Translations under genes and position numbers: made by a program
Origin: Candidatus Berkelbacteria bacterium
Lineage (GTDB): Bacteria; Patescibacteriota; UBA1384; XYA2-FULL-43-10; 1-14-0-10-43-13
Assembly: GCA_037143235.1 (NCBI GenBank)
Contig: JBAWZC010000004.1
Span: 1,776-65,775 of the forward strand
Direction of reading: 5' to 3'
Length of the DNA stretch: 64,000 nucleotides
The notes under the pieces: generated by a model
Database searches by the model: none
The model's input: the letters and a program-made list of their open reading frames with translations, nothing else
Told to the model about the DNA's origin: nothing
Part shown: positions 26,741 to 48,924 of the stretch, one piece after another
Position numbering within the stretch: position 1 is the first letter of the stretch
Layout: every line of letters begins with the position of its first letter

Positions 26741-26889
26741 CTATCTCAATCTACCATTTCTTTCGCAAAAAATCACCCCCCAGCGGCGATGAATCTTTCG
26801 TCGTTTTTTGCTCTGTTTCTCAACGATCGACGATATATGGAGTAAAGTCGACTTCATTGATAATGAGCGTGTTTTTTGTTAGTATGCGG

Positions 26890-27138
26890 GTACGTTGACT
26901 AGAGTTAGCGCTAGTACTGAATTGTGTGAAAGCGAGTAATTCTCCTGTGCGATAAAAAGCCTGCTGGTAATCCAGGTTCGAGAATCGTGGAAGCACAATT
27001 ACAGATGCGCCCTTGCCGGATTCCGGTGAGGTAAGGAAAGAGATTTCCTGAGGGTTTCTTTTTCCCCACAGAGCCTGCGAACGCAAGTAGTCGACGTACA
27101 CCTGAGGGTACACAGATCAAATTGCGATTTGTGTACCC
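26890..27138 (+). ncRNA. Candidate retron msr/msd non-coding RNA region upstream of the RT. Speculative.
   Basis: 13-bp inverted repeats GTACGTTGACTAG (26890-26902) and GTAGTCGACGTAC (27087-27099) match at 11 of 13 positions and sit about 185 nt apart. A second 9-bp inverted repeat GGGTACACA/TGTGTACCC lies at 27106-27138, just before the RT start. The region is GC-elevated like the RT. Confidence 0.25.
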
Positions 27139-27164
27139 TTGATCTCTTTTAAGGAGGCATGACA

Positions 27165-28145
27165 ATGCCATTACTCAGAACCAAGGAGTATAAAGCGGCA
27201 CTGAGTTTGGCTCGTCACCTCAATCTCAGTGTCCCCGACCTCATGGCCGTTTTGAAATCAGAGAACGGCAGTTACGACTTCTATCATTCTTGGCAGGAAG
27301 CCAAGAAGAGTGGTGGGTTCAGGACTTATCATAGTCCACTTGAGCCACTCCGAACATTTCAGCAGATAATCAGGGAGAGAGTATTATCTCGTCTTCCGGT
27401 GTCTGCCATAGCTCATGGCTATGCTAAAGGCAAGAGCATCGTCACAAATGCCGATGCTCACATCAAGAGTAGATCTTTGTTTGCTCTTGATCTGTCGGAT
27501 GCGTTTGGCTCGACCGCCTTGCGCTACAAGCTGAAACAACAGCAAAAAACGAAGAGTTGCTTAAGTTTAGCCGAATTTGGCCTGACCTTGCCGCAATTCG
27601 AAGTAATGCTGAAGTTGGTCGAAGTGCTACCCATGGTTAATAGTGAGATGCAGTGTTTGCCATTCCTCCCACAAGGCGGAATTACCTCTCCTGACATCTT
27701 CAACTATTGTTGCCACGAGTTGGATCGACGATTGCTTCAATTGGCTAACAACGTTGGAGGAAAGGTGACCAGATATGCTGACAACATCTTTTTCTCAATG
27801 CCGTCTATCCGAGTCGACAATGCGATTCGAAATGCAGTTTATCGGATCGTCCAAGAGTGTGGCTTCAAGCTCAATAGGAAGAAGACTCACCATATTGTGA
27901 ACGGCAATCGCAATGGTGTGCCACTTCGGCTGCTAGGTATCAATATCATCGACGGTGACATGTATTTGCCACCGGAGACGATAGAGAGATACCGAGGATT
28001 GCTTTATCGGGCAGGACTCGAGGCCGACCACGAGACATTTGCTTGGATCAAGGGCGTTGTGATTCAAGTTTATGGGGGTTGGCCGCCACGCCTTGCCGGT
28101 ATTTACCGGAAGGGACTCACGAAAGGAGGTCATTTATCACCATAG
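27165..28145 (+). CDS. Retron-type reverse transcriptase (RNA-directed DNA polymerase) with an unusual YADN in place of the catalytic YADD
   Basis: YDFYHSWQEAKKSGGFRTYHSPLEPLRTFQQII (RT domains 1-2, retron-like), AHGYAKGKSIVTNADAHIKSRSLFALDLSDAFGS (domains 3-4), LPQGGITSPDIFN (domain 5), RYADNIFFS (domain 5-6) and LNRKKTH. AAGGAGG sits 7 nt upstream of ATG 27165. Confidence 0.8.
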   Translation: MPLLRTKEYKAALSLARHLNLSVPDLMAVLKSENGSYDFYHSWQEAKKSGGFRTYHSPLEPLRTFQQIIRERVLSRLPVSAIAHGYAKGKSIVTNADAHIKSRSLFALDLSDAFGSTALRYKLKQQQKTKSCLSLAEFGLTLPQFEVMLKLVEVLPMVNSEMQCLPFLPQGGITSPDIFNYCCHELDRRLLQLANNVGGKVTRYADNIFFSMPSIRVDNAIRNAVYRIVQECGFKLNRKKTHHIVNGNRNGVPLRLLGINIIDGDMYLPPETIERYRGLLYRAGLEADHETFAWIKGVVIQVYGGWPPRLAGIYRKGLTKGGHLSP

Positions 28146-28356
28146 AGACGGTCGGCATTGCTGGCCGTCTCTAACTGTATCAAAAATATGAGATTGAGCG
28201 GTTTGTTAGTGGAGGCAAAAGGACTATGTCAGCTTGAGCTGTTTTTTGATTTTATTGATTTCTTCCTCGAGCCGACTGACATGATTTATCGTGAAAAGTC
28301 TCTCTTGGTCGAGACGAGCTAACACATTGGATATCGGATCAGTTCGACAATATGAT

Positions 28357-28412: not shown

Positions 28413-28697
28413 ATGGCATTACCGAAAAACGAATTGAAAAAACTTGAAACAGAGATAGCCGCTCTTAGAGCCACTTTCGACAAGACAAGAGAGAAGGTTC
28501 GTAAAACAGGTGGAGACAAGATTCAACTCTGGGCTTTTCGGCTAAATTCAAGAATTCACGAAATCGAGAATAAGATTAATGATTTAAAAGCTGGTAATAT
28601 TAGGGTTAATATTATTAGTCCAGAAGACGAAGAAATTGAGAAAAAGATAGCTCAGATCGAGACAAGACTGGGCATAGAAAAAGATAAGTATTTATAG
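28413..28697 (+). CDS. Small coiled-coil protein, hypothetical
   Basis: 94 aa, heptad-rich (LKKLETEIAALRATFDKTREKV, IENKINDLKAG), with no TM helix. Confidence 0.45.
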   Translation: MALPKNELKKLETEIAALRATFDKTREKVRKTGGDKIQLWAFRLNSRIHEIENKINDLKAGNIRVNIISPEDEEIEKKIAQIETRLGIEKDKYL

Positions 28698-28705
28698 GAG
28701 AAATT

Positions 28706-28978
28706 ATGGCCAGAATAACATTAGACGATCTTGCTGCGTCGATTCAAAATGAGTTTAGTTCTTTGCACGATCAAATCGATGGTCTGGAACAAAAAGTGGG
28801 CGGACTAGAAGCCGGGGTCTCTAGTCTGGGGCAAAAAGTAGCTAATCTTGAACAAGGCCAGGAGCGCATCTTTTTGCGATTAGATCATCTGGCACCACAT
28901 TTCGAAGTCAAAGATCTTGGTGAAAGGGTGAAAACTTTGGAGATTGATGTTAAGATATTGAATTCTGCAAGTCATTAG
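28706..28978 (+). CDS. Small coiled-coil protein, hypothetical
   Basis: 90 aa (LHDQIDGLEQKVGGLEAGVSSLGQKVANLEQGQ), 9 nt after the previous ORF. Confidence 0.45.
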   Translation: MARITLDDLAASIQNEFSSLHDQIDGLEQKVGGLEAGVSSLGQKVANLEQGQERIFLRLDHLAPHFEVKDLGERVKTLEIDVKILNSASH

Positions 28979-30399: not shown

Positions 30400-31806
30400 T
30401 TAAACCGCCAAAGGATATAGCTCAAGCTCTGTCCTCTGCGGTCGACTACCTTTGTCTGGCCTTTTGTGATGGCTTCCTTTTTGGATGGCGACTCCACCGT
30501 CTGGCCATATATGTACTCCGCCCATACAAGCGCCGGGGTCTGCATCCTCTTCATATTTCGGATTATCGTCGTGCTCTTTCCAGTGGCTTACAGATCCAGT
30601 TTGCACACGATAATAATATGCTTGATGTTGTTCGTCCATGCCTGAAGTTAATTTCAGTTCATTTACATATTTAATTAATGGAGCTCTTACTAATTCCTCG
30701 AATTCTCTATGCTCAGGAGAGCCATCTTCGTCAAGGCGAAAGACAATATTTAGTGGAAGACCCTGAAAAGCCAAGATCACGTTTTTCATATGCTCTCTAT
30801 ATTGATTTAGGTCTTTTCTTGCCAACCCTTCTGAAGGCGAGATGCTAATCCTGATATCTGAGAGTAAATATGGCTGTTCATTGCAAAGTTCGACAATTTT
30901 CTTGGCTGCAATAGGGCCTAGTTGGTCGCCTTCCTGCCAACCCGCTGTCGAGATAAATACTGGACGAAGAGGGGTGGCAATCATGCGAAAAGCATCACCA
31001 AGGTCAGCTATCTGTCCGTTCTCGTGGCGTAGGCTTGTGTCTCGCCAGTCAAATGGGTCACTGTCATTGAAAATATTAAGCTCTCTGCGAAAAGTATACG
31101 GGCTTAGGGGATAGTAATGTCGAAGAAATTGAAAAGTCCGACGGGGATCATTGCGATCTATCGGCACGGGAGGTACCTTTCCTTCTGGTTGATCGAAGTA
31201 TTTGGAAATCTCTTGGCCTGAGAATTCCTTTTCTATCGTCCTGATCAGTAAAATAGCATCTTCGGTAAAACCCTTATCAACTTGTTCTTTAAACCAATTA
31301 AGGTCAATCTTATTAAGATTAGTCCCGGTGATATTTTCAATATGCGTTGACCAGTCATCCCAGACTTTTTCGACTGGTATTTTTGACTTTTCAATCTCTT
31401 CGCCAATTTTGCCGATCATTACCAACGGCATTGATGTTAAGGGCTGGTCGACCCGATCGCACATTTCGCATTGATGGGAGCAGCCTTTTGTTATTTGGAC
31501 GCAAGATAAATTTTGGTAACCAAACACAACCTCTTTTTCATGGTCGGTCAGATGGACATCATCGAATAGATCAAGGCGCGGATTCTCAACCGTAGGTAGT
31601 TCCTTTGCAATTTCAGTAATTAAATCATCCGACCCATCGGCAATAGCATTCTCGACCCGAGCCCTTATAGCCTCACCTGCCTTAGAGAATGGGACGGTTC
31701 GCCGAAGAAAATTTTGGCAGCGTTCAGTTAAGATGCGTTGCTCTTTATCCTTGGGTTTGTCCTGATCCTCACTGTCGGGTTGTTCGGAGTGATTAAGTCT
31801 GTCCAT
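30400..31806 (-). CDS. Radical SAM domain protein of unassigned subfamily (468 aa)
   Basis: CxxxCxxC cluster in ITKGCSHQCEMCDR at about residue 108. No SPASM-like Cys-rich tail is evident. Confidence 0.7.
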   Translation of the reverse strand: MDRLNHSEQPDSEDQDKPKDKEQRILTERCQNFLRRTVPFSKAGEAIRARVENAIADGSDDLITEIAKELPTVENPRLDLFDDVHLTDHEKEVVFGYQNLSCVQITKGCSHQCEMCDRVDQPLTSMPLVMIGKIGEEIEKSKIPVEKVWDDWSTHIENITGTNLNKIDLNWFKEQVDKGFTEDAILLIRTIEKEFSGQEISKYFDQPEGKVPPVPIDRNDPRRTFQFLRHYYPLSPYTFRRELNIFNDSDPFDWRDTSLRHENGQIADLGDAFRMIATPLRPVFISTAGWQEGDQLGPIAAKKIVELCNEQPYLLSDIRISISPSEGLARKDLNQYREHMKNVILAFQGLPLNIVFRLDEDGSPEHREFEELVRAPLIKYVNELKLTSGMDEQHQAYYYRVQTGSVSHWKEHDDNPKYEEDADPGACMGGVHIWPDGGVAIQKGSHHKRPDKGSRPQRTELELYPLAV

Positions 31807-31937: not shown

Positions 31938-32357
31938 TTAGAACTTTTTGCTTAAGTATCCATTGTCAATTAAAAATGGAATTATTTGCTCTGTGATTGA
32001 TGGGGGAAGCTTGATTCCTTTTTCTTTATAATCACTTGAGATATAAGCAAATTCTTCGAGTTCGTCATCTTGAATGACTGGTTCTCCTATAATTTCAACT
32101 AGGAAGGCAGATAGCTTGACAATTGCGTCATCAAAAATTGCCTTCGACTCGAAATCTCTGAGTTTTTTAATGATATTAATATCGCAGCCTATTTCTTCGT
32201 TTACCTCGCGAGCTAAAGCGACTTTTTCAGTTTCGCCTATTTCCGGTTTTCCGCCTAAATTAGTCCAAATATCTTTTCCCTTTTTACGAACCATAATAAA
32301 GGAGTCATTTTTGATTGAAATGGCGATAATTTTATGAATTATTTTCATTTTTTGCAC
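31938..32357 (-). CDS. NUDIX hydrolase
   Basis: Nudix box GGKPEIGETEKVALAREVNEEIG. Confidence 0.8.
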   Translation of the reverse strand: MQKMKIIHKIIAISIKNDSFIMVRKKGKDIWTNLGGKPEIGETEKVALAREVNEEIGCDINIIKKLRDFESKAIFDDAIVKLSAFLVEIIGEPVIQDDELEEFAYISSDYKEKGIKLPPSITEQIIPFLIDNGYLSKKF

Positions 32358-33292
32358 AACTTTAATTTTTTGGTATCGATGAATATTTTCTTTGTATTTT
32401 GTTCTGATTTTGTTGTGGTTTTTACTTGTCCTAAGTCTAACAAGTTTCCACTAAAATGGCCAGTTGAATATGCAGTGATCACTTTTTTGTGCCAATTTAA
32501 ATCGTTTATCGTTCGGCCAGCAATTTTGAACCACCTAATTCCTCTTCTTTGATATTCGTCCATCCATTCAGGAAGAACGAAATAACCTTTTAGAATATCT
32601 TCGGTTTTACTCATAAAAAAGCCAGAACAAAGATTGTATGGGAAATTGTCAAAGTGTTGATCGCTGGATTTGTAGTTGTCGGCTAATCCTTGCAAAATAT
32701 AATGGCAATTTCTCATCAAACAATCACCGCAGAATTCGTTGACTAAAATCTCGAATTCAGCATCTTTTACTTCATTCAATTTATCTAACAATCCAAAATT
32801 TCTGTTTGTTCTTAGATCAAGAATTATTCTTTTCGCCCCAAGCCATTTGGCTTGTTCAATTCTCGGAATCGAATCAATCCCCATAATCGTGCTAGTGACA
32901 ACATTAAAATCGGAAAATTTTTGCTTTATGAATTCCATTGCTAACGGCGAAGAAACCGTGATAGTTTTAATTCCTATTTTATTTAGATTGATTAGCAGCC
33001 CTTTGATATCATTATCCAAATCTTTTAAAGTAATCGCCGGAGAATTAAGCGCGTAATTAAATCCTATGTTTATTGTTGATAATTTATCAACAAACAATCC
33101 GAGTTTGTTTATTGTGATAGCTGGCAATCTTGAAGATTCGCGTGCAGTATATTTTGGCAATGAGCCGTAAACCTCTTTAATTTTTGCACTACCTTGTACT
33201 TCATTAATCGATTTGTAAAAATTAATTGCATTTTCATGAAAAATAAATGGCACCGACAACAAGGCGTTAGGTTGTTTTGATTGTGTTTGCAT
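32345..33292 (-). CDS. Divergent peptidase-U32-family-like TIM-barrel protein with a Cys cluster. The family assignment is tentative.
   Basis: LGAKRIILDLRTN and EFEILVNEFCGDCLMRNCHYIL ... NLCSGFF parallel the U32 core (lGakRvvLaREL ... EvFvHGalC..SGrC..S). The Cys spacing resembles the Fe-S site of UbiU/UbiV/TrhP-type U32 hydroxylases. Confidence 0.4.
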   Translation of the reverse strand: MQTQSKQPNALLSVPFIFHENAINFYKSINEVQGSAKIKEVYGSLPKYTARESSRLPAITINKLGLFVDKLSTINIGFNYALNSPAITLKDLDNDIKGLLINLNKIGIKTITVSSPLAMEFIKQKFSDFNVVTSTIMGIDSIPRIEQAKWLGAKRIILDLRTNRNFGLLDKLNEVKDAEFEILVNEFCGDCLMRNCHYILQGLADNYKSSDQHFDNFPYNLCSGFFMSKTEDILKGYFVLPEWMDEYQRRGIRWFKIAGRTINDLNWHKKVITAYSTGHFSGNLLDLGQVKTTTKSEQNTKKIFIDTKKLKLCKK

Positions 33293-33385: not shown

Positions 33386-33462
33386 TGGCGGGATCGGCCG
33401 GATTCGAACCGGTGACCTCCACAGTGACAGTGTGGCGTTCTAACCAACTGAACTACGACCCC
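33386..33462 (-). tRNA. tRNA-Asp (anticodon GTC)
   Basis: Hand-folded: acceptor GGGGTCG/CGATCCC, anticodon loop CTGTCAC, T-loop TTCGAAT, CCA encoded. Confidence 0.85.
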
Positions 33463-33557
33463 GCGGTAAACTATTTGGATTGATTTTTCTGTCGCAAAGA
33501 ATCACGACACTAAGATAATAGCATTTTTAGGAAGATTATTCAATCCTAAATATCTTT

Positions 33558-33633
33558 TGGAGCCGATGAGAGGATTTGAACCTCCGACCTCCACTTTACG
33601 AAAGTGTTGCTCTACCAGCTGAGCTACATCGGC
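33558..33633 (-). tRNA. tRNA-Thr (anticodon CGT)
   Basis: Hand-folded: acceptor GCCGATG/CATCGGC, anticodon loop TTCGTAA, T-loop TTCAAAT, CCA encoded. Confidence 0.8.
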
Positions 33634-33634
33634 C

Positions 33635-33708
33635 TGGAGCGGGTAGCGGGAATCGAACCCGCGACTCATCCTTGGGAAGGACGCATTTTACCACTAAACC
33701 ATACCCGC
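33635..33708 (-). tRNA. tRNA-Gly (anticodon CCC)
   Basis: Hand-folded: acceptor GCGGGTA/TACCCGC, anticodon loop TTCCCAA, T-loop TTCGATT, CCA encoded. Lies 1 nt from tRNA-Thr. Confidence 0.8.
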
Positions 33709-44512: not shown

Positions 44513-46255
44513 ATGCGCAAAGTAATGTTCTCTTTCTTTGGTTTTGCAGCAATTATGCTGCTCGTCAGTTGTAGCGGCGGTGGCGGAGGCGGGAGCCAAG
44601 ATCCCACAGATCCGCCCATCGTCCCGCCGACCCCACCGGTCAACTCGGCCGTGACCACTATCAGTCCGGGAGGGACTGGATCAGTATCCAAGGATGGTTT
44701 GACAGTTCAGGTCGGGAGCGAATGCTTCCCGTCAGGTGCAAAGGTGACTTTGGGAGTAGAAAATCCGAAGCAATTGCCTCCAGTCGATGAATTCATTGCT
44801 CTCGAAGGTAAGGCCCAGGTCACGATTCAGGCCACAGCCACGCCGCAGGGTGAGATGGTGCTCGTTCTGGCGGCCAATCGTGGTGTTGGTGAGACAATTG
44901 TGGCTGGTCTCGTTGGCGGCCTCTGGAAGTGTTTATCACTTCCGTCCAGAGTTACTGATCTGCCAGGGACCGTCAGACTCAATCGTGAGTCTTTTGGTCT
45001 CGCGAAGACAATTGTAGGGGTCGTTGGCAGAATTGCCACCGGCTCAGTCAGTCCTGATACTGCACTCTTGCAGTACGGGGCAGACAAGCCCGACAGCTTG
45101 CCAAGAGTAGCCGTGCTGGTACACGGGTTTAATTCTGACGCCGGCGCTATGACTTTGCTGGCTGATAAATTGATCTCAGCCAGTCTCTATGGCCGGATCT
45201 ATGTTTACTCCTACGATTGGCGGCGTCGGATCGAGGACACCGGTGCTGATTTCGCCAATAGACTGACAACATTGTCTGGGCAGGGCGTCAAGATCGATGT
45301 CCTCGCCCACTCCATGGGCGTCCTCGTGTCGAGATACGCCTTCGAGAAGTGTGACGCAACCTTTGGTATCGATCAGTTCATTGGCATTTGTGGGCCAAAC
45401 AACGGTTCGTACCTTGCTAGAGCAGATCTCGTGGTCAACGAGCTGCGAAACGACTTCTTGAACTTGCCCGACTCGGCAAGACGGCAGGGGACATTTGCAA
45501 CCTTGGGTATCGCCTCCATCGAGGAGATGATGCCAGGGTCAGCGTTACTCGCTAACTTGAACGCTGTCGACACCACGAAGCCACGCGGCAGCATAAACTA
45601 CTCATTGATCGGGAGCCGATCCGATCTGGTTGTCGGTTATGCTAGTGGCATTGGATCAGGGATAGAGATGACGGCCAAGACAGGCGGCAGCTTCACTTCT
45701 GCCGAGTCCAACCGCGGTCATAATTCTCTGCTATCCGACTCGTCGACTGCACAATGGGTGACCGATTTCGTTGAGGGGTCGACGATGCCACCGGAGGTGA
45801 CATTGACCGGCTTCGACGGCTATTCCAATACTGATCTGGAAGGGGATGATTGGGGCTGGGTCTTCGACTTGGAATTGATAAACAATTCCCAGGCGGAGAT
45901 TAGCCTCACCGACATTTCAGTCGATGAATACGATCGATATGGCGTGTGGCAGCGAAATCTCTGGGTGAATGATGGCAGCTTACGACAAAGGGCGTACTTC
46001 GCCTTTAATCGTCGCATAGCCGCTGGCCAGTGCTGGAGGAATTACGGCTTGATAGTCATCCACGCTCAGGACGACAACATGTGGATTGAGCAGTCTGAAC
46101 CGAAAAATCAGGCCAAAACCTTGGTTGTGCGGGTCCGATGCTACGATCCAGTGGTCAAGCGGTCGTGGTGTATTGCTCGGCAGTATCGCCTGAACTGGGA
46201 GGGAATAACGCCGACCACCCCTGTGGTTCGGTCATCGAGATCAAGATCTGACTAA
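44513..46255 (+). CDS. Lipoprotein with an alpha/beta-hydrolase (lipase/esterase-like) domain. Markedly GC-rich relative to its neighbours.
   Basis: Lipobox LLVSC, a Gly/Pro-rich linker, VAVLVHGFNSD and the nucleophile-elbow-like LAHSMGV. Confidence 0.6.
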   Translation: MRKVMFSFFGFAAIMLLVSCSGGGGGGSQDPTDPPIVPPTPPVNSAVTTISPGGTGSVSKDGLTVQVGSECFPSGAKVTLGVENPKQLPPVDEFIALEGKAQVTIQATATPQGEMVLVLAANRGVGETIVAGLVGGLWKCLSLPSRVTDLPGTVRLNRESFGLAKTIVGVVGRIATGSVSPDTALLQYGADKPDSLPRVAVLVHGFNSDAGAMTLLADKLISASLYGRIYVYSYDWRRRIEDTGADFANRLTTLSGQGVKIDVLAHSMGVLVSRYAFEKCDATFGIDQFIGICGPNNGSYLARADLVVNELRNDFLNLPDSARRQGTFATLGIASIEEMMPGSALLANLNAVDTTKPRGSINYSLIGSRSDLVVGYASGIGSGIEMTAKTGGSFTSAESNRGHNSLLSDSSTAQWVTDFVEGSTMPPEVTLTGFDGYSNTDLEGDDWGWVFDLELINNSQAEISLTDISVDEYDRYGVWQRNLWVNDGSLRQRAYFAFNRRIAAGQCWRNYGLIVIHAQDDNMWIEQSEPKNQAKTLVVRVRCYDPVVKRSWCIARQYRLNWEGITPTTPVVRSSRSRSD

Positions 46256-47986: not shown

Positions 47987-48061
47987 GGTAGCCTCAAGGA
48001 GAGTTGAACTCCTCTTCCCAGATTGAAAATCTGGTGTCCTAACCGATAGACGATGAGGCCA
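47987..48061 (-). tRNA. tRNA-Glu (anticodon TTC)
   Basis: Hand-folded: GGCCTCATCGTCTATCGGTTAGGAC ..., anticodon loop TTTTCAA, T-loop TTCAACT, CCA encoded. Confidence 0.85.
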
Positions 48062-48149
48062 TAGTCGCAGAGCGACAATAATCAATTACCTAACAAAATG
48101 GTTGACTTTCTTGGTGCGGCGCTGAGCGCCGCTTTCACCACGCTAAGCG

Positions 48150-48167
48150 TGGTGGACTGCCTGGGAC
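48150..48167. repeat. 18-bp direct duplicate of the tRNA-Lys 3' end (TGGTGGACTGCCTGGGAC), 129 bp from the intact gene. Looks like an att-like integration scar.
   Basis: Identical to 48279-48296. The intervening 111 bp carry two hairpins (CTAGAAACC/GGTTTCTAG and GGGAAAC/GTTTCCC). Confidence 0.75.
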
Positions 48168-48278
48168 ATCTCACGCGCTCGACGGGCTCGCTTCTAGAAA
48201 CCGACGGTTTCTAGTATCTTCCTGCGACGGGAAACTCCCGTTTCCCGACCCCTTCCCGTTCTCGTCCCTGTCATTCCT

Positions 48279-48353
48279 TGGTGGACTGCCTGGGACTCGA
48301 ACCCAGAACCAATGCCTTAAGAGGGCACTGCTCTACCATTGAGCTAGCAATCC
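48279..48353 (-). tRNA. tRNA-Lys (anticodon CTT)
   Basis: Hand-folded: acceptor GGATTGC/GCAGTCC, anticodon loop CTCTTAA, T-loop TTCGAGT, CCA encoded. Confidence 0.85.
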
Positions 48354-48395
48354 ATAAATTAACAAAAAAATTCATCCAGGTCAAACAAATTTGGT

Positions 48396-48471
48396 TGGTA
48401 CCCGCGAAAGGAATCGAACCTTTGACCAATTGCTTAGAAGGCAACTGCTCTATCCACTGAGCTACGCGGGC
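48396..48471 (-). tRNA. tRNA-Arg (anticodon TCT)
   Basis: Hand-folded: GCCCGCGTAGCTCAGTGGATAGAGC ..., anticodon loop CTTCTAA, T-loop TTCGATT, CCA encoded. Confidence 0.85.
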
Positions 48472-48575
48472 CTAAAGACAATTTAATCGATTAATCATTT
48501 AGTCAATTAATCAATTGCTCAATAAATGAAAAAATGGACAAATGACTAAATTATTAAATGTCGGCTCTGCCGATC

Positions 48576-48652
48576 TGGTACGCCCTGAGGGATTTGAACC
48601 CCCGACCTACTGATCCGAAGTCAGTCGCTCTATCCAGCTGAGCTAAGGGCGC
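48576..48652 (-). tRNA. tRNA-Arg (anticodon TCG)
   Basis: Hand-folded: GCGCCCTTAGCTCAGCTGGATAGAGC ..., anticodon stem ACTGA/TCAGT, loop CTTCGGA, T-loop TTCAAAT, CCA encoded. Confidence 0.8.
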
Positions 48653-48693
48653 ATATTTACAAGTGCTCAAAGACGACTCAAAACAGATTCAAA

Positions 48694-48769
48694 TGGGGCG
48701 GCCAACGGGAATTGAACCCGTGACTGCAGTGCCACAAACTACCGTGATAACCACTTCACTATGGCCGCC
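48694..48769 (-). tRNA. tRNA-His (anticodon GTG) with G-1:C73
   Basis: Hand-folded: extra 5' G pairing with discriminator C73, anticodon loop TTGTGGC, T-loop TTCAATT, CCA encoded. Confidence 0.85.
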
Positions 48770-48849
48770 ATAATATTAGTTATGAGATCTTAGTATTTAG
48801 AACTTAGAAAATTACCCAGTTCTAAGATCTAAATTCTCAGCTCTATTTT

Positions 48850-48924
48850 TGGAGCAGGTAGCGGGAGTCGAACCCGCGTCTCAACCTTGGAAGGGTCGCA
48901 TAATAGCCGTTATACGATACCTGC
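48850..48924 (-). tRNA. tRNA-Gly (anticodon TCC)
   Basis: Hand-folded: acceptor GCAGGTA/TACCTGC, anticodon stem CGACC/GGTTG with loop CTTCCAA, T-arm GCGGG-TTCGACT-CCCGC, CCA encoded. The D stem is weak (3 bp). Confidence 0.75.

What the first reader, a model, noticed from the sequence alone, without database searches (positions are those of the whole stretch)
26750..28200. GC-shifted retron-type reverse transcriptase island with a YADN active-site variant and a candidate msr/msd, inserted between eno and a coiled-coil gene pair
Positions 27165-28145 encode a 327-aa protein carrying the retron RT signature blocks: YxxFxxxKKxGGxR, GFxKGKSIxxNAxxH ... LDLxDxF, LPQGxxxSP and NRKKT. The expected YADD catalytic motif reads YADN (GAC AAC), and the retron VTG block is replaced by LLGINI.

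The roughly 400 bp upstream and the RT itself are about 48% GC, against about 38-40% in the flanking eno and coiled-coil genes. That is consistent with horizontal acquisition.

Upstream, 13-bp imperfect inverted repeats (26890-26902 and 27087-27099) bracket about 185 nt containing palindromes such as GCCGGATTCCGG. This is the a1/a2 geometry expected for an msr/msd ncRNA ending just before the RT start.

No canonical retron effector (TIR, TOPRIM, HNH, ATPase, ribosyltransferase) is adjacent. The Asp-to-Asn change would normally impair polymerisation, so this could be a decaying retron, a sequencing error, or an RT repurposed for a non-polymerase role.
Basis: partly seen in the sequence, partly recalled or inferred. 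Interest (0 to 1): 0.7.

Follow-up and report, generated by a model that had tools for sequence, protein, structure and literature searches.

The report
Effector-less retron-like RT with YADN
This is a real, self-contained reverse-transcriptase gene with its own structured RNA partner, from a previously unclassified branch of bacterial retrons in which one of the three catalytic aspartates is always asparagine and no partner toxin gene is attached, so what it does is open.

Summary
The reverse transcriptase (RT) gene, its YADN motif and the upstream inverted repeats are all real. The RT is retron-type by profile, solved-structure sequence and fold comparisons.

The Asp-to-Asn change is neither a sequencing error nor decay. 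The same protein occurs in three independent assemblies. All 92 members found of a diverse RT clade carry [YF]xDN, while every other catalytic and dNTP-binding residue stays conserved.

The ~260 nt upstream is a conserved, strongly covarying ncRNA with its own promoter. It has:
- an a1/a2 closing helix followed by a conserved G;
- a sequence-conserved hairpin;
- a ~50-nt weakly structured segment of constant length;
- a strong hairpin plus an anti-Shine-Dalgarno (SD)-like CUCUUUU before the RT.

A sister subclade has the same layout. It sits in conserved dnaX | RT-cysS synteny in candidate phyla radiation (CPR, Patescibacteria)-type contigs; the only named genome is Candidatus Paceibacterota.

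No neighbouring gene is conserved, so there is no effector in cis. The "GC-shifted island" claim fails, because eno has the same GC as the RT.

Best reading: a functional orphan retron variant with a slowed or metal-retuned polymerase. The product and the biological role are inferred, not shown.

The parts
26857..26885 (+). Sigma-70-type promoter of the ncRNA-RT unit: -35 TTGATA, 17-nt spacer, extended -10 TGtTAGTAT
   Evidence: 9 of 12 matches, TG present. An equivalent TAnTAT or TTGACA-17-TAATTT box lies at the same place before a1 in the related loci.
26887..27150 (+). Structured ncRNA, retron msr/msd-like, about 260 nt
   Evidence: The fold has z = -6.4 against shuffles. In the window's subclade (clade A), 94.5% of cells are paired against 83.5% when shuffled, and 23 of 59 pairs show compensatory changes, exceeded by 0 of 500 shuffles. 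Model R1, built without L007, finds L007 at 75 bits, E = 9e-21. There is no Rfam match. G-U pairs fix the folded strand as +.
26890..26901 (+). a1, the 5' strand of the closing helix P1; the conserved G follows at 26902
   Evidence: The helix covaries across loci: GUUGACUA/UAGUCAAC, GCUUGGCUA/UAGCCAAGC, AUUGACUA/UAGUCAAU, GGUGCUA/UAGCACC, GCUGCUC/GAGCAGC, GGUUGCUC/GAGCAACC and AUCCUAUCC/GGGUAGGAU. A G follows a1 directly in 16 of 17 loci.
26908..27010 (+). 5' multi-stem domain (msr-like). Its length varies across the family, with an extra ~85 nt in L007.
   Evidence: Helices 2-6, with compensatory changes. The distance from a1 to the conserved hairpin ranges from 36 to 206 nt.
27011..27031 (+). 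Sequence-conserved 9-bp hairpin, CUUGCCGG-AUU-CCGGUGAG. The sister subclade (clade B) has GGCUGUCAG-AAUU-CUGACGGC.
   Evidence: helix 3, 97% paired; helix 7, 100% paired. It is the most conserved element of the RNA.
27032..27087 (+). 3' segment between the conserved hairpin and a2. It is 44-65 nt in all loci and weakly structured (in the window, a 9+3-bp hairpin at 27035-27065). It is the candidate template.
   Evidence: the distance from hairpin to a2 end is 51-72 nt, against 36-206 nt on the 5' side; z ranges from -2.1 to +1.7. A G precedes a2 in 15 of 17 loci. The template role is an inference.
27088..27099 (+). a2, the 3' strand of closing helix P1
   Evidence: helix 1, 96.7% paired; helix 1, 100% paired.
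27104..27140 (+). Strong 15-bp hairpin outside a2; a candidate terminator or attenuator
   Evidence: Every family member has one. In clade B, all 11 pairs of this helix show compensatory changes (helix 5).
27144..27157 (+). Conserved CUCUUUU (anti-SD-like, able to pair with AAGGAG), followed by the SD sequence AAGGAGG
   Evidence: (helix at alignment columns 266-271/276-281). YUCUUUWAAAA is conserved before the SD in both subclades. The regulatory role is an inference.
27165..28145 (+). Retron-type reverse transcriptase, 326 aa (328 aa if translation starts at 27159)
   Evidence: Pfam RVT_1 3e-16. PADLOC retron RT models score 80-155 bits. PDB retron Ec86 scores 125 bits. The AF2 model has pLDDT 86, and its top Foldseek hits are retron RTs at TM 0.63-0.71.
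27489..27491 (+). Motif A catalytic Asp (LDLSDAF)
   Evidence: Invariant in 92 of 92 YxDN-clade members.
27774..27785 (+). Motif C, Y-A-D-N (TAT GCT GAC AAC); the Asn codon is 27783-27785
   Evidence: Asn is found in 92 of 92 clade members, and Asp in 77 of 77 of the other retron-like hits.
28143..28173 (+). 15-bp hairpin overlapping the stop codon; the likely end of the transcription unit
   Evidence: (I7). A stem-loop follows the RT stop directly in all 13 loci checked, most of them with a U-tract.

Best explanation
Window 26857-28173 is one autonomous transcription unit: promoter, ~260-nt structured ncRNA, RT gene, terminal hairpin. It belongs to a previously unclassified sister clade of retron RTs.

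Three traits define the clade. Motif C is invariantly [YF]xDN. The retron VTG triplet is replaced by xLG or LPG. No cis-encoded effector is present. The clade was found in metagenomes and in one named genome, Candidatus Paceibacterota.

Shown:
- retron-type RT sequence and fold;
- a cognate ncRNA with a covarying a1/a2 closing helix, a conserved G after a1, a conserved internal hairpin, and a constant-length, weakly structured 3' segment;
- selection that keeps Asn while preserving the rest of the active site;
- no conserved neighbouring gene.

Inferred:
- The RT binds its own ncRNA through the conserved hairpin and P1.
- It primes on the 2'-OH of the G after a1 and copies the ~50-nt 3' segment, starting next to a2 and stopping at the conserved hairpin. 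The product would be a short RNA-linked cDNA.
- The Asn replaces a ligand of catalytic metal A. This would make the enzyme a slow polymerase that prefers Mn2+ rather than a dead one.
- The hairpin after a2, together with CUCUUUU pairing to the Shine-Dalgarno (SD) sequence, keeps RT translation low relative to the ncRNA.
- The RT-RNA-cDNA particle itself, or a partner encoded elsewhere, carries the biological effect. Whether that effect is defence or a cellular role is unknown.
For: RT family:
- PADLOC's best hits are all retron RT models: RT_XIII 155 bits, III-A 145, II-A 135.
- NCBIfam retron_St85_RT scores 129 bits, against 41 for group II and 29 for Drt2.
- PDB sequence hits are Ec86 3e-35, Ec67 and Kva2, against group II 1e-8 and Drt2 4e-6.
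- Foldseek top hits are Eco7, Ec78, Ec86 and Eco2.

Asn is selected:
- The identical protein occurs in three contigs from separate assemblies.
- Of 170 RT domains, 92 carry DN, and all 92 fall in one bipartition of 96.
- D and N differ by a single transition, yet N is 92/92. Meanwhile motif A D is 92/92, QG 90-92/92, fingers K and R 83 and 89/92, and Y/F 92/92.

Chemical precedent: the Ty1 RT mutant D211N changes the second D of YXDD. It keeps processive polymerase activity with kpol down 223-fold, dNTP Kd unchanged and a preference for Mn2+ (PMC2148107).

ncRNA:
- Covariation statistics support the fold in both subclades.
- Covariance models find members they were not trained on, always directly upstream of the RT.
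- The fold has z = -6.4 against shuffles.
- G flanks the closing helix, and the 3' segment has constant length.
- The same layout appears in the more divergent L032 and L036.

Autonomy: a promoter and a stem-loop after the stop codon in all 13 loci checked.

No effector: neighbours differ in every clade A (the window's subclade) locus, and no protein family is shared within +/-4 kb apart from the closely related pair L005/L009. The sister subclade (clade B) is flanked by dnaX and cysS. P0176 is flanked by hisS.
Against: - No msDNA or cDNA has been observed, so polymerase activity is inferred only from conservation and from a Ty1 mutant. The equivalent Asp-to-Asn change is reported to disrupt polymerase function in retroviral RTs (PMC2148107 introduction).
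- The canonical long, stable msd stem-loop inside a1/a2 is absent or weak. The strongest hairpin lies outside a2.
- No Rfam family matches.
- The retron VTG triplet is not kept.
- The tree is neighbour-joining with short internal branches, and four DD sequences fall inside the DN side. Monophyly is therefore suggestive, not robust.
- The taxonomy of the window itself was not determined.
Confidence: 0.58

Rival explanations
1. The RT no longer polymerises. It has been kept as an RNA-binding scaffold or chaperone that forms a particle with the ncRNA, comparable to RT-like domains that have lost catalysis, and the particle has a regulatory or sensing role.
For: - One of the three catalytic carboxylates is missing in every member.
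- The protein and its RNA co-vary and are always linked.
- No effector is present.
- The sister subclade (clade B) shows long-term synteny.
Against: A non-catalytic protein would be expected to relax the other active-site residues. Here the motif A Asp, the first motif C Asp, QG, the aromatic gate F and the triphosphate-binding K and R are 90-100% conserved across proteins less than 50% identical. Asn is itself invariant rather than variable. Ty1 D211N still polymerises.
Confidence: 0.17
2. It is an ordinary anti-phage retron whose effector is encoded elsewhere in the genome, or a two-part defence system in which the cDNA itself is the effector, as in DRT2 or DRT9.
For: - Retron RTs are mostly defence components.
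- Orphan retron branches without a linked protein are known, such as the Ec107 branch and clade 11 (PMC7736814; bioRxiv 10.64898/2026.05.14.725207).
- Members of the window's subclade (clade A) sit in different contexts, as mobile defence genes do.
Against: - The contexts are housekeeping genes rather than defence islands: eno, lspA/rplT, dnaX/cysS/dnaB/recR and hisS/thyX.
- In clade B, RT identity tracks CysS identity (Spearman 0.53, non-independent pairs). The RT stays beside cysS down to ~35% CysS identity.
- No stop-free repeat unit of the DRT2 kind exists. The a1-a2 lengths are mostly not multiples of three, and no frame is consistently open.
- Drt2 similarity is weak (29 bits against a cutoff of 390).
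Confidence: 0.2
3. It is a decaying retron pseudogene, or the Asn is an assembly or sequencing error.
For: The YADD motif is otherwise near-universal in RTs.
Against: - The ORF is intact, and the identical protein is present in three contigs from separate assemblies.
- Asn is 92/92 across a diverse clade.
- The promoter, SD sequence, terminal hairpin and covarying RNA are all intact.
Confidence: 0.01
4. It is a DGR, group II intron or Abi/UG-type RT rather than a retron relative.
For: DGRs are reported to make up about 80% of RTs in candidate phyla radiation (CPR) bacteria (PMC8632793).
Against: - No template/variable repeat copy of the upstream region exists anywhere in the window.
- Motif B is QGxxTSP.
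- The group II model TIGR04416 scores 41 bits against a cutoff of 300.
- No intron RNA is found by Rfam.
- All top sequence and fold hits are retron RTs.
Confidence: 0.01

Closest known systems
Orphan retrons without a linked effector: the Retron-Eco5/Ec107 branch of RT clade 2, and branches of clade 11 (Mestre et al. 2020, PMC7736814)
   Same: An RT plus an upstream a1/a2-closed ncRNA forms the whole locus. No accessory gene recurs. The RT belongs to the retron superfamily and keeps the His of the NAXXH region.
   Different: - Motif C is YxDN instead of YADD, and the VTG triplet becomes xLG.
- The PADLOC Ec107-like model scores only 101 bits, against 155 for RT_XIII.
- The ncRNA has no long msd stem-loop and has an extra hairpin outside a2.
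- Hosts are CPR-type genomes rather than Proteobacteria or Bacillota.
Type XIII retrons (RT clade 10)
   Same: RT_XIII is the best-scoring PADLOC RT model, at 155 bits. Type XIII retrons are reported to have a distinct ncRNA and signs of vertical inheritance.
   Different: Type XIII is defined by a winged-helix/SWIM protein and a HEAT/ARM protein next to the RT, and neither is present. The match also starts at position 113 of the 469-position model, so the N-terminal part is missing.
Structurally characterised retron RTs: Ec86/Eco1, Ec78/Eco7, Ec67/Eco2
   Same: The fold matches (TM 0.63-0.71). Motifs 1-7 are collinear, and the N-terminal helices and C-terminal RNA-binding region are shared.
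   Different: Identity is 21-24%. Those RTs have YADD and act with NDT, PtuAB or Toprim effectors. Here there is no effector, and the active-site signature is co-varying: DxxxAF in place of DxxxFF, YxDN-I-F-F in place of YADD-L-T-F, and RxLGLNI in place of xVTGLxV.
Ty1 reverse transcriptase mutant D211N (PMC2148107)
   Same: The same substitution, of the second Asp of YXDD to Asn.
   Different: It is an engineered mutant of a eukaryotic LTR-retrotransposon RT that loses transposition. Here the Asn is the natural, selected state of a whole bacterial clade.
DRT2 (RT plus ncRNA, makes the neo gene)
   Same: A two-part RT plus ncRNA system with no protein effector.
   Different: RT similarity is weak (29 bits, cutoff 390). 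There is no stop-free concatenable unit. The RNA architecture is different.

Membership tests
Retron (RT plus msr/msd ncRNA) | RT groups with retron RTs rather than with group II, DGR or Abi/UG RTs | tested here: met
   All 27 family members tested match the retron RT models.
Retron (RT plus msr/msd ncRNA) | [quoted passage not shown] | tested here: met
   The window has NADAH. H is found in 90 of 92 clade members. N and A vary: most of the clade has A-I/L-x-P-H.
Retron (RT plus msr/msd ncRNA) | [quoted passage not shown] | tested here: not met
   The window has LLG. Across the clade G is 91/92, but T is replaced by L (69) or P (16).
Retron (RT plus msr/msd ncRNA) | Catalytic YADD (YxDD) in motif C | tested here: not met
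   YADN in the window, and [YF]xDN in 92 of 92 clade members.
Retron (RT plus msr/msd ncRNA) | ncRNA directly upstream of the RT, with terminal inverted repeats (a1/a2) that pair | tested here: met
   There are 8 sequence variants of the helix, all complementary.
Retron (RT plus msr/msd ncRNA) | Conserved branching G next to a1 | tested here: met
   A G follows a1 directly in 16 of 17 loci. Its use as a primer cannot be tested with these tools.
Retron (RT plus msr/msd ncRNA) | Long, stable msd stem-loop (10-50 bp) inside a1/a2 | tested here: inconclusive
   The window has a 9+3-bp hairpin at 27035-27065. Across 17 loci the 3' segment folds no better than shuffles (z from -2.1 to +1.7). The strong hairpin lies outside a2.
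Retron (RT plus msr/msd ncRNA) | Production of 2'-5' branched msDNA | not testable with these tools
   This needs nucleic-acid extraction or an in-vitro reaction.
Retron (RT plus msr/msd ncRNA) | Third component: a linked or fused effector | tested here: not met
   Orphan retron branches are, however, accepted in the literature.
Type XIII retron | Adjacent winged-helix/SWIM protein and HEAT/ARM-repeat protein | tested here: not met
   The neighbours are eno, two ~90-aa coiled-coil proteins and a PEMT-family methyltransferase. The definition comes from PMC7736814.
Diversity-generating retroelement (DGR) | Template repeat plus a near-identical variable repeat in a target gene | tested here: not met
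   No second copy of 26880-27160 exists in the 64-kb window.
Group II intron RT/maturase | Match to the group II RT/maturase model, and an intron RNA around the ORF | tested here: not met
   TIGR04416 scores 41 bits against a cutoff of 300. Rfam finds no intron RNA.
DRT2 | Drt2-type RT, and an ncRNA whose template concatenates into a stop-free ORF | tested here: not met
   NF041746 scores 29 bits against a cutoff of 390. No frame is consistently open, and lengths are mostly not multiples of three.

The most novel reading that the evidence does not exclude
The YxDN RT-ncRNA pair is not a defence element. It is a domesticated, vertically inherited ribonucleoprotein of Patescibacteria. The selected Asp-to-Asn change would give a deliberately slow or Mn2+-gated polymerase that makes a short templated DNA, or performs only limited nucleotide addition, for a cellular purpose. 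That would make it the first retron-type RT with a core-genome role. The sister subclade's (clade B) placement among dnaX, cysS, dnaB and recR would then be more than coincidence.
Probability: 0.2. Interest if true: 0.85.

Novelty: new variant of a known kind. Interest (0 to 1): 0.68.

Why it matters
Retron RTs are being developed as in-cell DNA writers, and they are central to current work on bacterial immunity. All characterised ones use YADD and act together with an effector.

A large natural clade that has fixed YxDN while keeping the rest of the active site is a natural experiment on the two-metal mechanism of reverse transcriptases. It may yield enzymes with different metal dependence, speed or product length.

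The clade has no effector and a stable chromosomal position in tiny candidate phyla radiation (CPR) genomes. This makes directly testable the question of whether some retrons do something other than abortive-infection defence. The new ncRNA family also gives a defined RNA partner for biochemical work.

Tried and rejected
- **DRT2/neo-like idea.** The 186-nt spacing between a1 and a2 and the minus-strand ORFs at 26820-27113 and 26911-27171 suggested a concatenable ORF. Across 17 loci the inner length is a multiple of three in only 3, and no frame is consistently stop-free. Rejected.
- **SRP RNA next to dnaX** as an explanation for the conserved clade B (sister subclade) intergenic sequence. Rfam finds no hit at gathering threshold. 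Rejected.
- **GC island.** Rejected.
- **DGR.** No template/variable repeat pair.
- **Conserved neighbouring effector.** An all-against-all BLASTP of ORFs within +/-4 kb found nothing shared apart from the closely related pair L005/L009. The two coiled-coil genes downstream of the window RT recur only in assemblies of the same organism.
- **N-terminal extensions of longer clade members.** They carry no Pfam domain.
- **GTDB genome scans.** The first scan found nothing. The second found a single hit, Candidatus Paceibacterota. The taxonomy of the window itself is therefore unresolved.
- **Viral contigs, phage records and plasmid records.** Only distant YADD retron RTs below 33% identity were found.
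- **Literature searches.** Searches for YADN, YVDN, retron with candidate phyla radiation (CPR), and effector-less retrons found no description of this clade. The library is incomplete, so prior description cannot be excluded.
- **Cross-clade RNA detection.** Model R1 (clade A) does not detect clade B RNAs. Model R2 (clade B) hits clade A only at E = 0.27, in the right place in L001. Homology of the two RNA subfamilies therefore rests on shared architecture, not on a single model.
Full report
**What is there**

The window holds an intact ORF at 27159-28145 on the + strand. The second ATG, at 27165, is the likely start. The Shine-Dalgarno (SD) sequence AAGGAGG at 27151-27157 lies 7 nt before it and only 1 nt before the first ATG. 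The database copy of the protein (P0001) has 326 aa, and the homologues begin at the equivalent Met.

Motif C reads Y-A-D-N, coded TAT GCT GAC AAC at 27774-27785. The Asn codon is therefore at 27783-27785, not at about 27756.

The inverted repeat is real: 26890-26901 pairs with 27088-27099, 12 nt, 92% complementary, 186 nt apart.

**GC content**

The GC claim fails. GC is 0.477 for eno, 0.451 for gpmI, 0.477 for the ncRNA region and 0.481 for the reverse transcriptase (RT), against 0.425 for the window. Third-position GC of the RT (0.526) is only slightly above eno (0.491). Only the downstream genes are lower.

**Which RT family**

- Pfam sees RVT_1.
- The best PADLOC models are all retron RTs: RT_XIII 155 bits, III-A 145, II-A 135.
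- NCBIfam gives retron_St85_RT 129 bits, the group II maturase model 41 bits and Drt2 29 bits.
- A family profile searched against solved structures hits retron Ec86 (3e-35), Ec67, Kva2 and Ec78. Group II RTs come at 1e-8 and Drt2 at 4e-6.
- An AlphaFold model (pLDDT 86) matches retron RTs Eco7, Ec78, Ec86 and Eco2 at TM 0.63-0.71.

No template/variable repeat pair exists in the window.

**The Asn is selected, not an error or decay**

P0001 occurs in three contigs from separate assemblies.

A word-indexed search found only seven relatives. The five at 49-59% identity and one at 33% all have Y[AV]DN.

An exhaustive profile search of 1.84 billion cluster representatives gave 672 hits below 1e-30. 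Nearly all of the top ~65 carry [YF]xDN.

I aligned 170 RT domains to the family profile. All 92 DN sequences fall on one side of a single bipartition of 96, together with four DD sequences on long branches. The tree is neighbour-joining with short internal branches, so monophyly is suggestive only.

Within the 92 DN sequences, the active site is otherwise intact:

| Position | Conservation |
|---|---|
| Motif A Asp | 92/92 |
| First motif C Asp | 92/92 |
| Asn | 92/92 |
| Motif B Q, G | 90, 92 |
| Aromatic gate F/Y | 91 |
| Fingers K, R | 83, 89 |

D and N differ by one transition, so neutral drift would not keep Asn. Three other signatures co-vary with it:

| This clade | Ordinary retron RTs |
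|---|---|
| DxxxAF | DxxxFF |
| DN-I-F-F-S | DD-L-T-F-S |
| RxLGLNI | xVTGLxV |

Median length is 353 aa, with no fused effector domain, against 474 aa for the YADD hits.

An experimental precedent shows that this exact substitution can leave a working enzyme. Ty1 RT D211N changes the second D of YXDD. It keeps processive polymerisation with kpol down 223-fold, dNTP affinity unchanged and a switch in preference to Mn2+ (PMC2148107). The same paper notes that retroviral RTs do not tolerate such changes.

**The ncRNA**

About 260 nt upstream of the RT is conserved at the DNA level in the related loci. A promoter precedes it: TTGATA, 17 nt, TGtTAGTAT at 26857-26885. This places the 5' end close to a1.

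The window RNA folds far better than shuffles (z = -6.4). The fold is laid out as follows:

| Element | Window coordinates |
|---|---|
| Closing helix P1 (a1/a2) | 26890-26901 with 27088-27099 |
| Multi-stem 5' domain | 26908-27010 |
| Sequence-conserved 9-bp hairpin | 27011-27031 |
| 3' segment | 27032-27087 |
| 15-bp hairpin outside a2 | 27104-27140 |
| CUCUUUU | 27144-27150 |
| SD | 27151-27157 |

In the five clade A RNAs (the window's subclade), 94.5% of cells pair, against 83.5% in shuffles. 23 of 59 pairs show compensatory changes, and no shuffle of 500 reaches this. With partners slid by 1-3 columns, pairing drops to 37-50%. A covariance model built without L007 finds L007 at 75 bits. 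Many G-U pairs fix the folded strand as +.

**The sister subclade (clade B)**

A metagenome scan recovered RTs at 27-32% identity to the window RT, all with RYADNIFFSM. Their upstream regions have the same layout:

- a TTGACA-17-TAATTT promoter;
- a1 GCUGCUC followed by G, and a2 GAGCAGC;
- the hairpin GGCUGUCAGAAUUCUGACGGC;
- a strong variable hairpin after a2;
- CUCUUUUAAAA, then the SD.

A model built from six of these RNAs finds five further members, always directly upstream of the RT. Pairing is 91% against 77% in shuffles. 24 of 37 pairs show compensatory changes, including all 11 pairs of the post-a2 hairpin.

Across 17 loci, P1 exists in eight different complementary sequence versions. 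A G follows a1 in 16 of 17 loci, and a G precedes a2 in 15 of 17. The distance from the conserved hairpin to the end of a2 is 51-72 nt, while the distance from a1 to the hairpin ranges from 36 to 206 nt.

The 3' segment is only weakly structured (z from -2.1 to +1.7). The long msd stem-loop of classical retrons is therefore not clearly present.

Two more divergent members (L032, L036) show the same elements by eye. Rfam has no match anywhere.

**Context**

The unit looks autonomous. It has a promoter in front and a stem-loop right after the stop codon in all 13 loci checked.

Clade A members sit in different places:
- eno and coiled-coil genes (the window);
- MFS transporter;
- peptidase S51 and recQ;
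- lspA and rplT.

No protein family is shared within +/-4 kb, apart from the closely related pair L005/L009.

Clade B sits in a conserved arrangement: dnaX on the minus strand, then RT and cysS on the plus strand, then dnaB and recR. Two of these loci lie on ~0.5-Mb contigs. The RT-cysS gap is exactly 61 nt in five loci. RT identity tracks CysS identity (Spearman 0.53; the pairs are not independent). The arrangement persists down to ~35% CysS identity. Another lineage sits before hisS and thyX.

The only hit in species-representative genomes is a Candidatus Paceibacterota MAG. Phage and plasmid collections hold only distant YADD retron RTs.

**Comparison with known systems**

By the published criteria (PMC7736814, PMC4244168), the outcome is:

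| Criterion | Outcome |
|---|---|
| RT phylogenetic affinity | met |
| NAXXH region, with conserved H | met |
| a1/a2-closed upstream ncRNA | met |
| Conserved G after a1 | met |
| VTG triplet | not met |
| YADD | not met |
| Linked effector | not met |
| msd stem-loop | inconclusive |

Orphan retron branches (Ec107, clade 11) are already accepted, so lack of an effector is not unprecedented.

Type XIII gives the best HMM score. It is excluded because its winged-helix/SWIM and HEAT/ARM partners are absent.

I found no paper describing a YxDN retron-type clade. The paper library is incomplete.

**Mechanism**

Shown: the items listed above.

Inferred:
- The RT recognises the conserved hairpin and P1.
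- It primes from the 2'-OH of G26902 and copies the constant-length 3' segment from next to a2 up to the hairpin. The product would be a short RNA-linked cDNA.
- The Asn weakens binding of catalytic metal A, so synthesis is slow or depends on Mn2+.
- The post-a2 hairpin with its U-run, and CUCUUUU pairing with the SD, hold RT expression below that of the RNA.

Whether the particle serves defence, through a trans partner or through the cDNA itself, or a cellular function is not decided by these data. The housekeeping contexts and clade B synteny lean away from a typical defence island. The rarity and patchiness of the family in reference genomes lean away from an essential function.

**Verdict**

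It is a new variant of a known kind. The biochemical question it raises is directly testable.

Noticed in passing
window 44513-46255 (+): A 580-aa predicted lipoprotein with an LLVSCSGGGGG lipobox and an AHSMG serine-hydrolase-like motif. Its GC is 0.543 and third-position GC 0.60, against 0.425 for the window. This is the real compositional outlier of the window and a better candidate for foreign origin than the RT.
   Followed up: partly
Proteins P0013, P0029 and P0024 from the deep search (not in the window): Each protein carries two RVT_1 domains, one with YLDD and one with YADD. P0024 (1381 aa) also has a protein kinase domain. They score 213-280 bits against the YxDN family profile.
   Followed up: partly
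L013, L014, L016, L024, L025 (cysS); L032-L035 (hisS): In two sublineages the YxDN RT lies directly upstream of an aminoacyl-tRNA synthetase gene on the same strand. The gap to cysS is exactly 61 nt in five loci. This may be coincidence in gene-dense small genomes.
   Followed up: partly
L001 about 1461-1510: A run of CTAATCC/CCCTAAT-like heptamer repeats lies just upstream of the ncRNA promoter. It is seen only in this locus.
   Followed up: no
window 28413-28697 and 28706-28978 (+): Two ~90-aa coiled-coil proteins lie downstream of the RT. They give only sub-threshold coiled-coil hits (DUF7310, FlaC, PbeC). They recur downstream of the RT only in assemblies of the same organism, not in other family members.
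   Followed up: yes
window 30400-31806 (-): A 468-aa ORF with a CxxxCxxC motif (GCSHQCEMCD) that looks radical-SAM-like by eye. A 315-aa ORF of unknown function lies further along on the same strand at 32345-33292.
   Followed up: no
window 33389-33708 and 47989-48924: Two tRNA gene clusters, of three and six tRNAs, on the minus strand.
   Followed up: no
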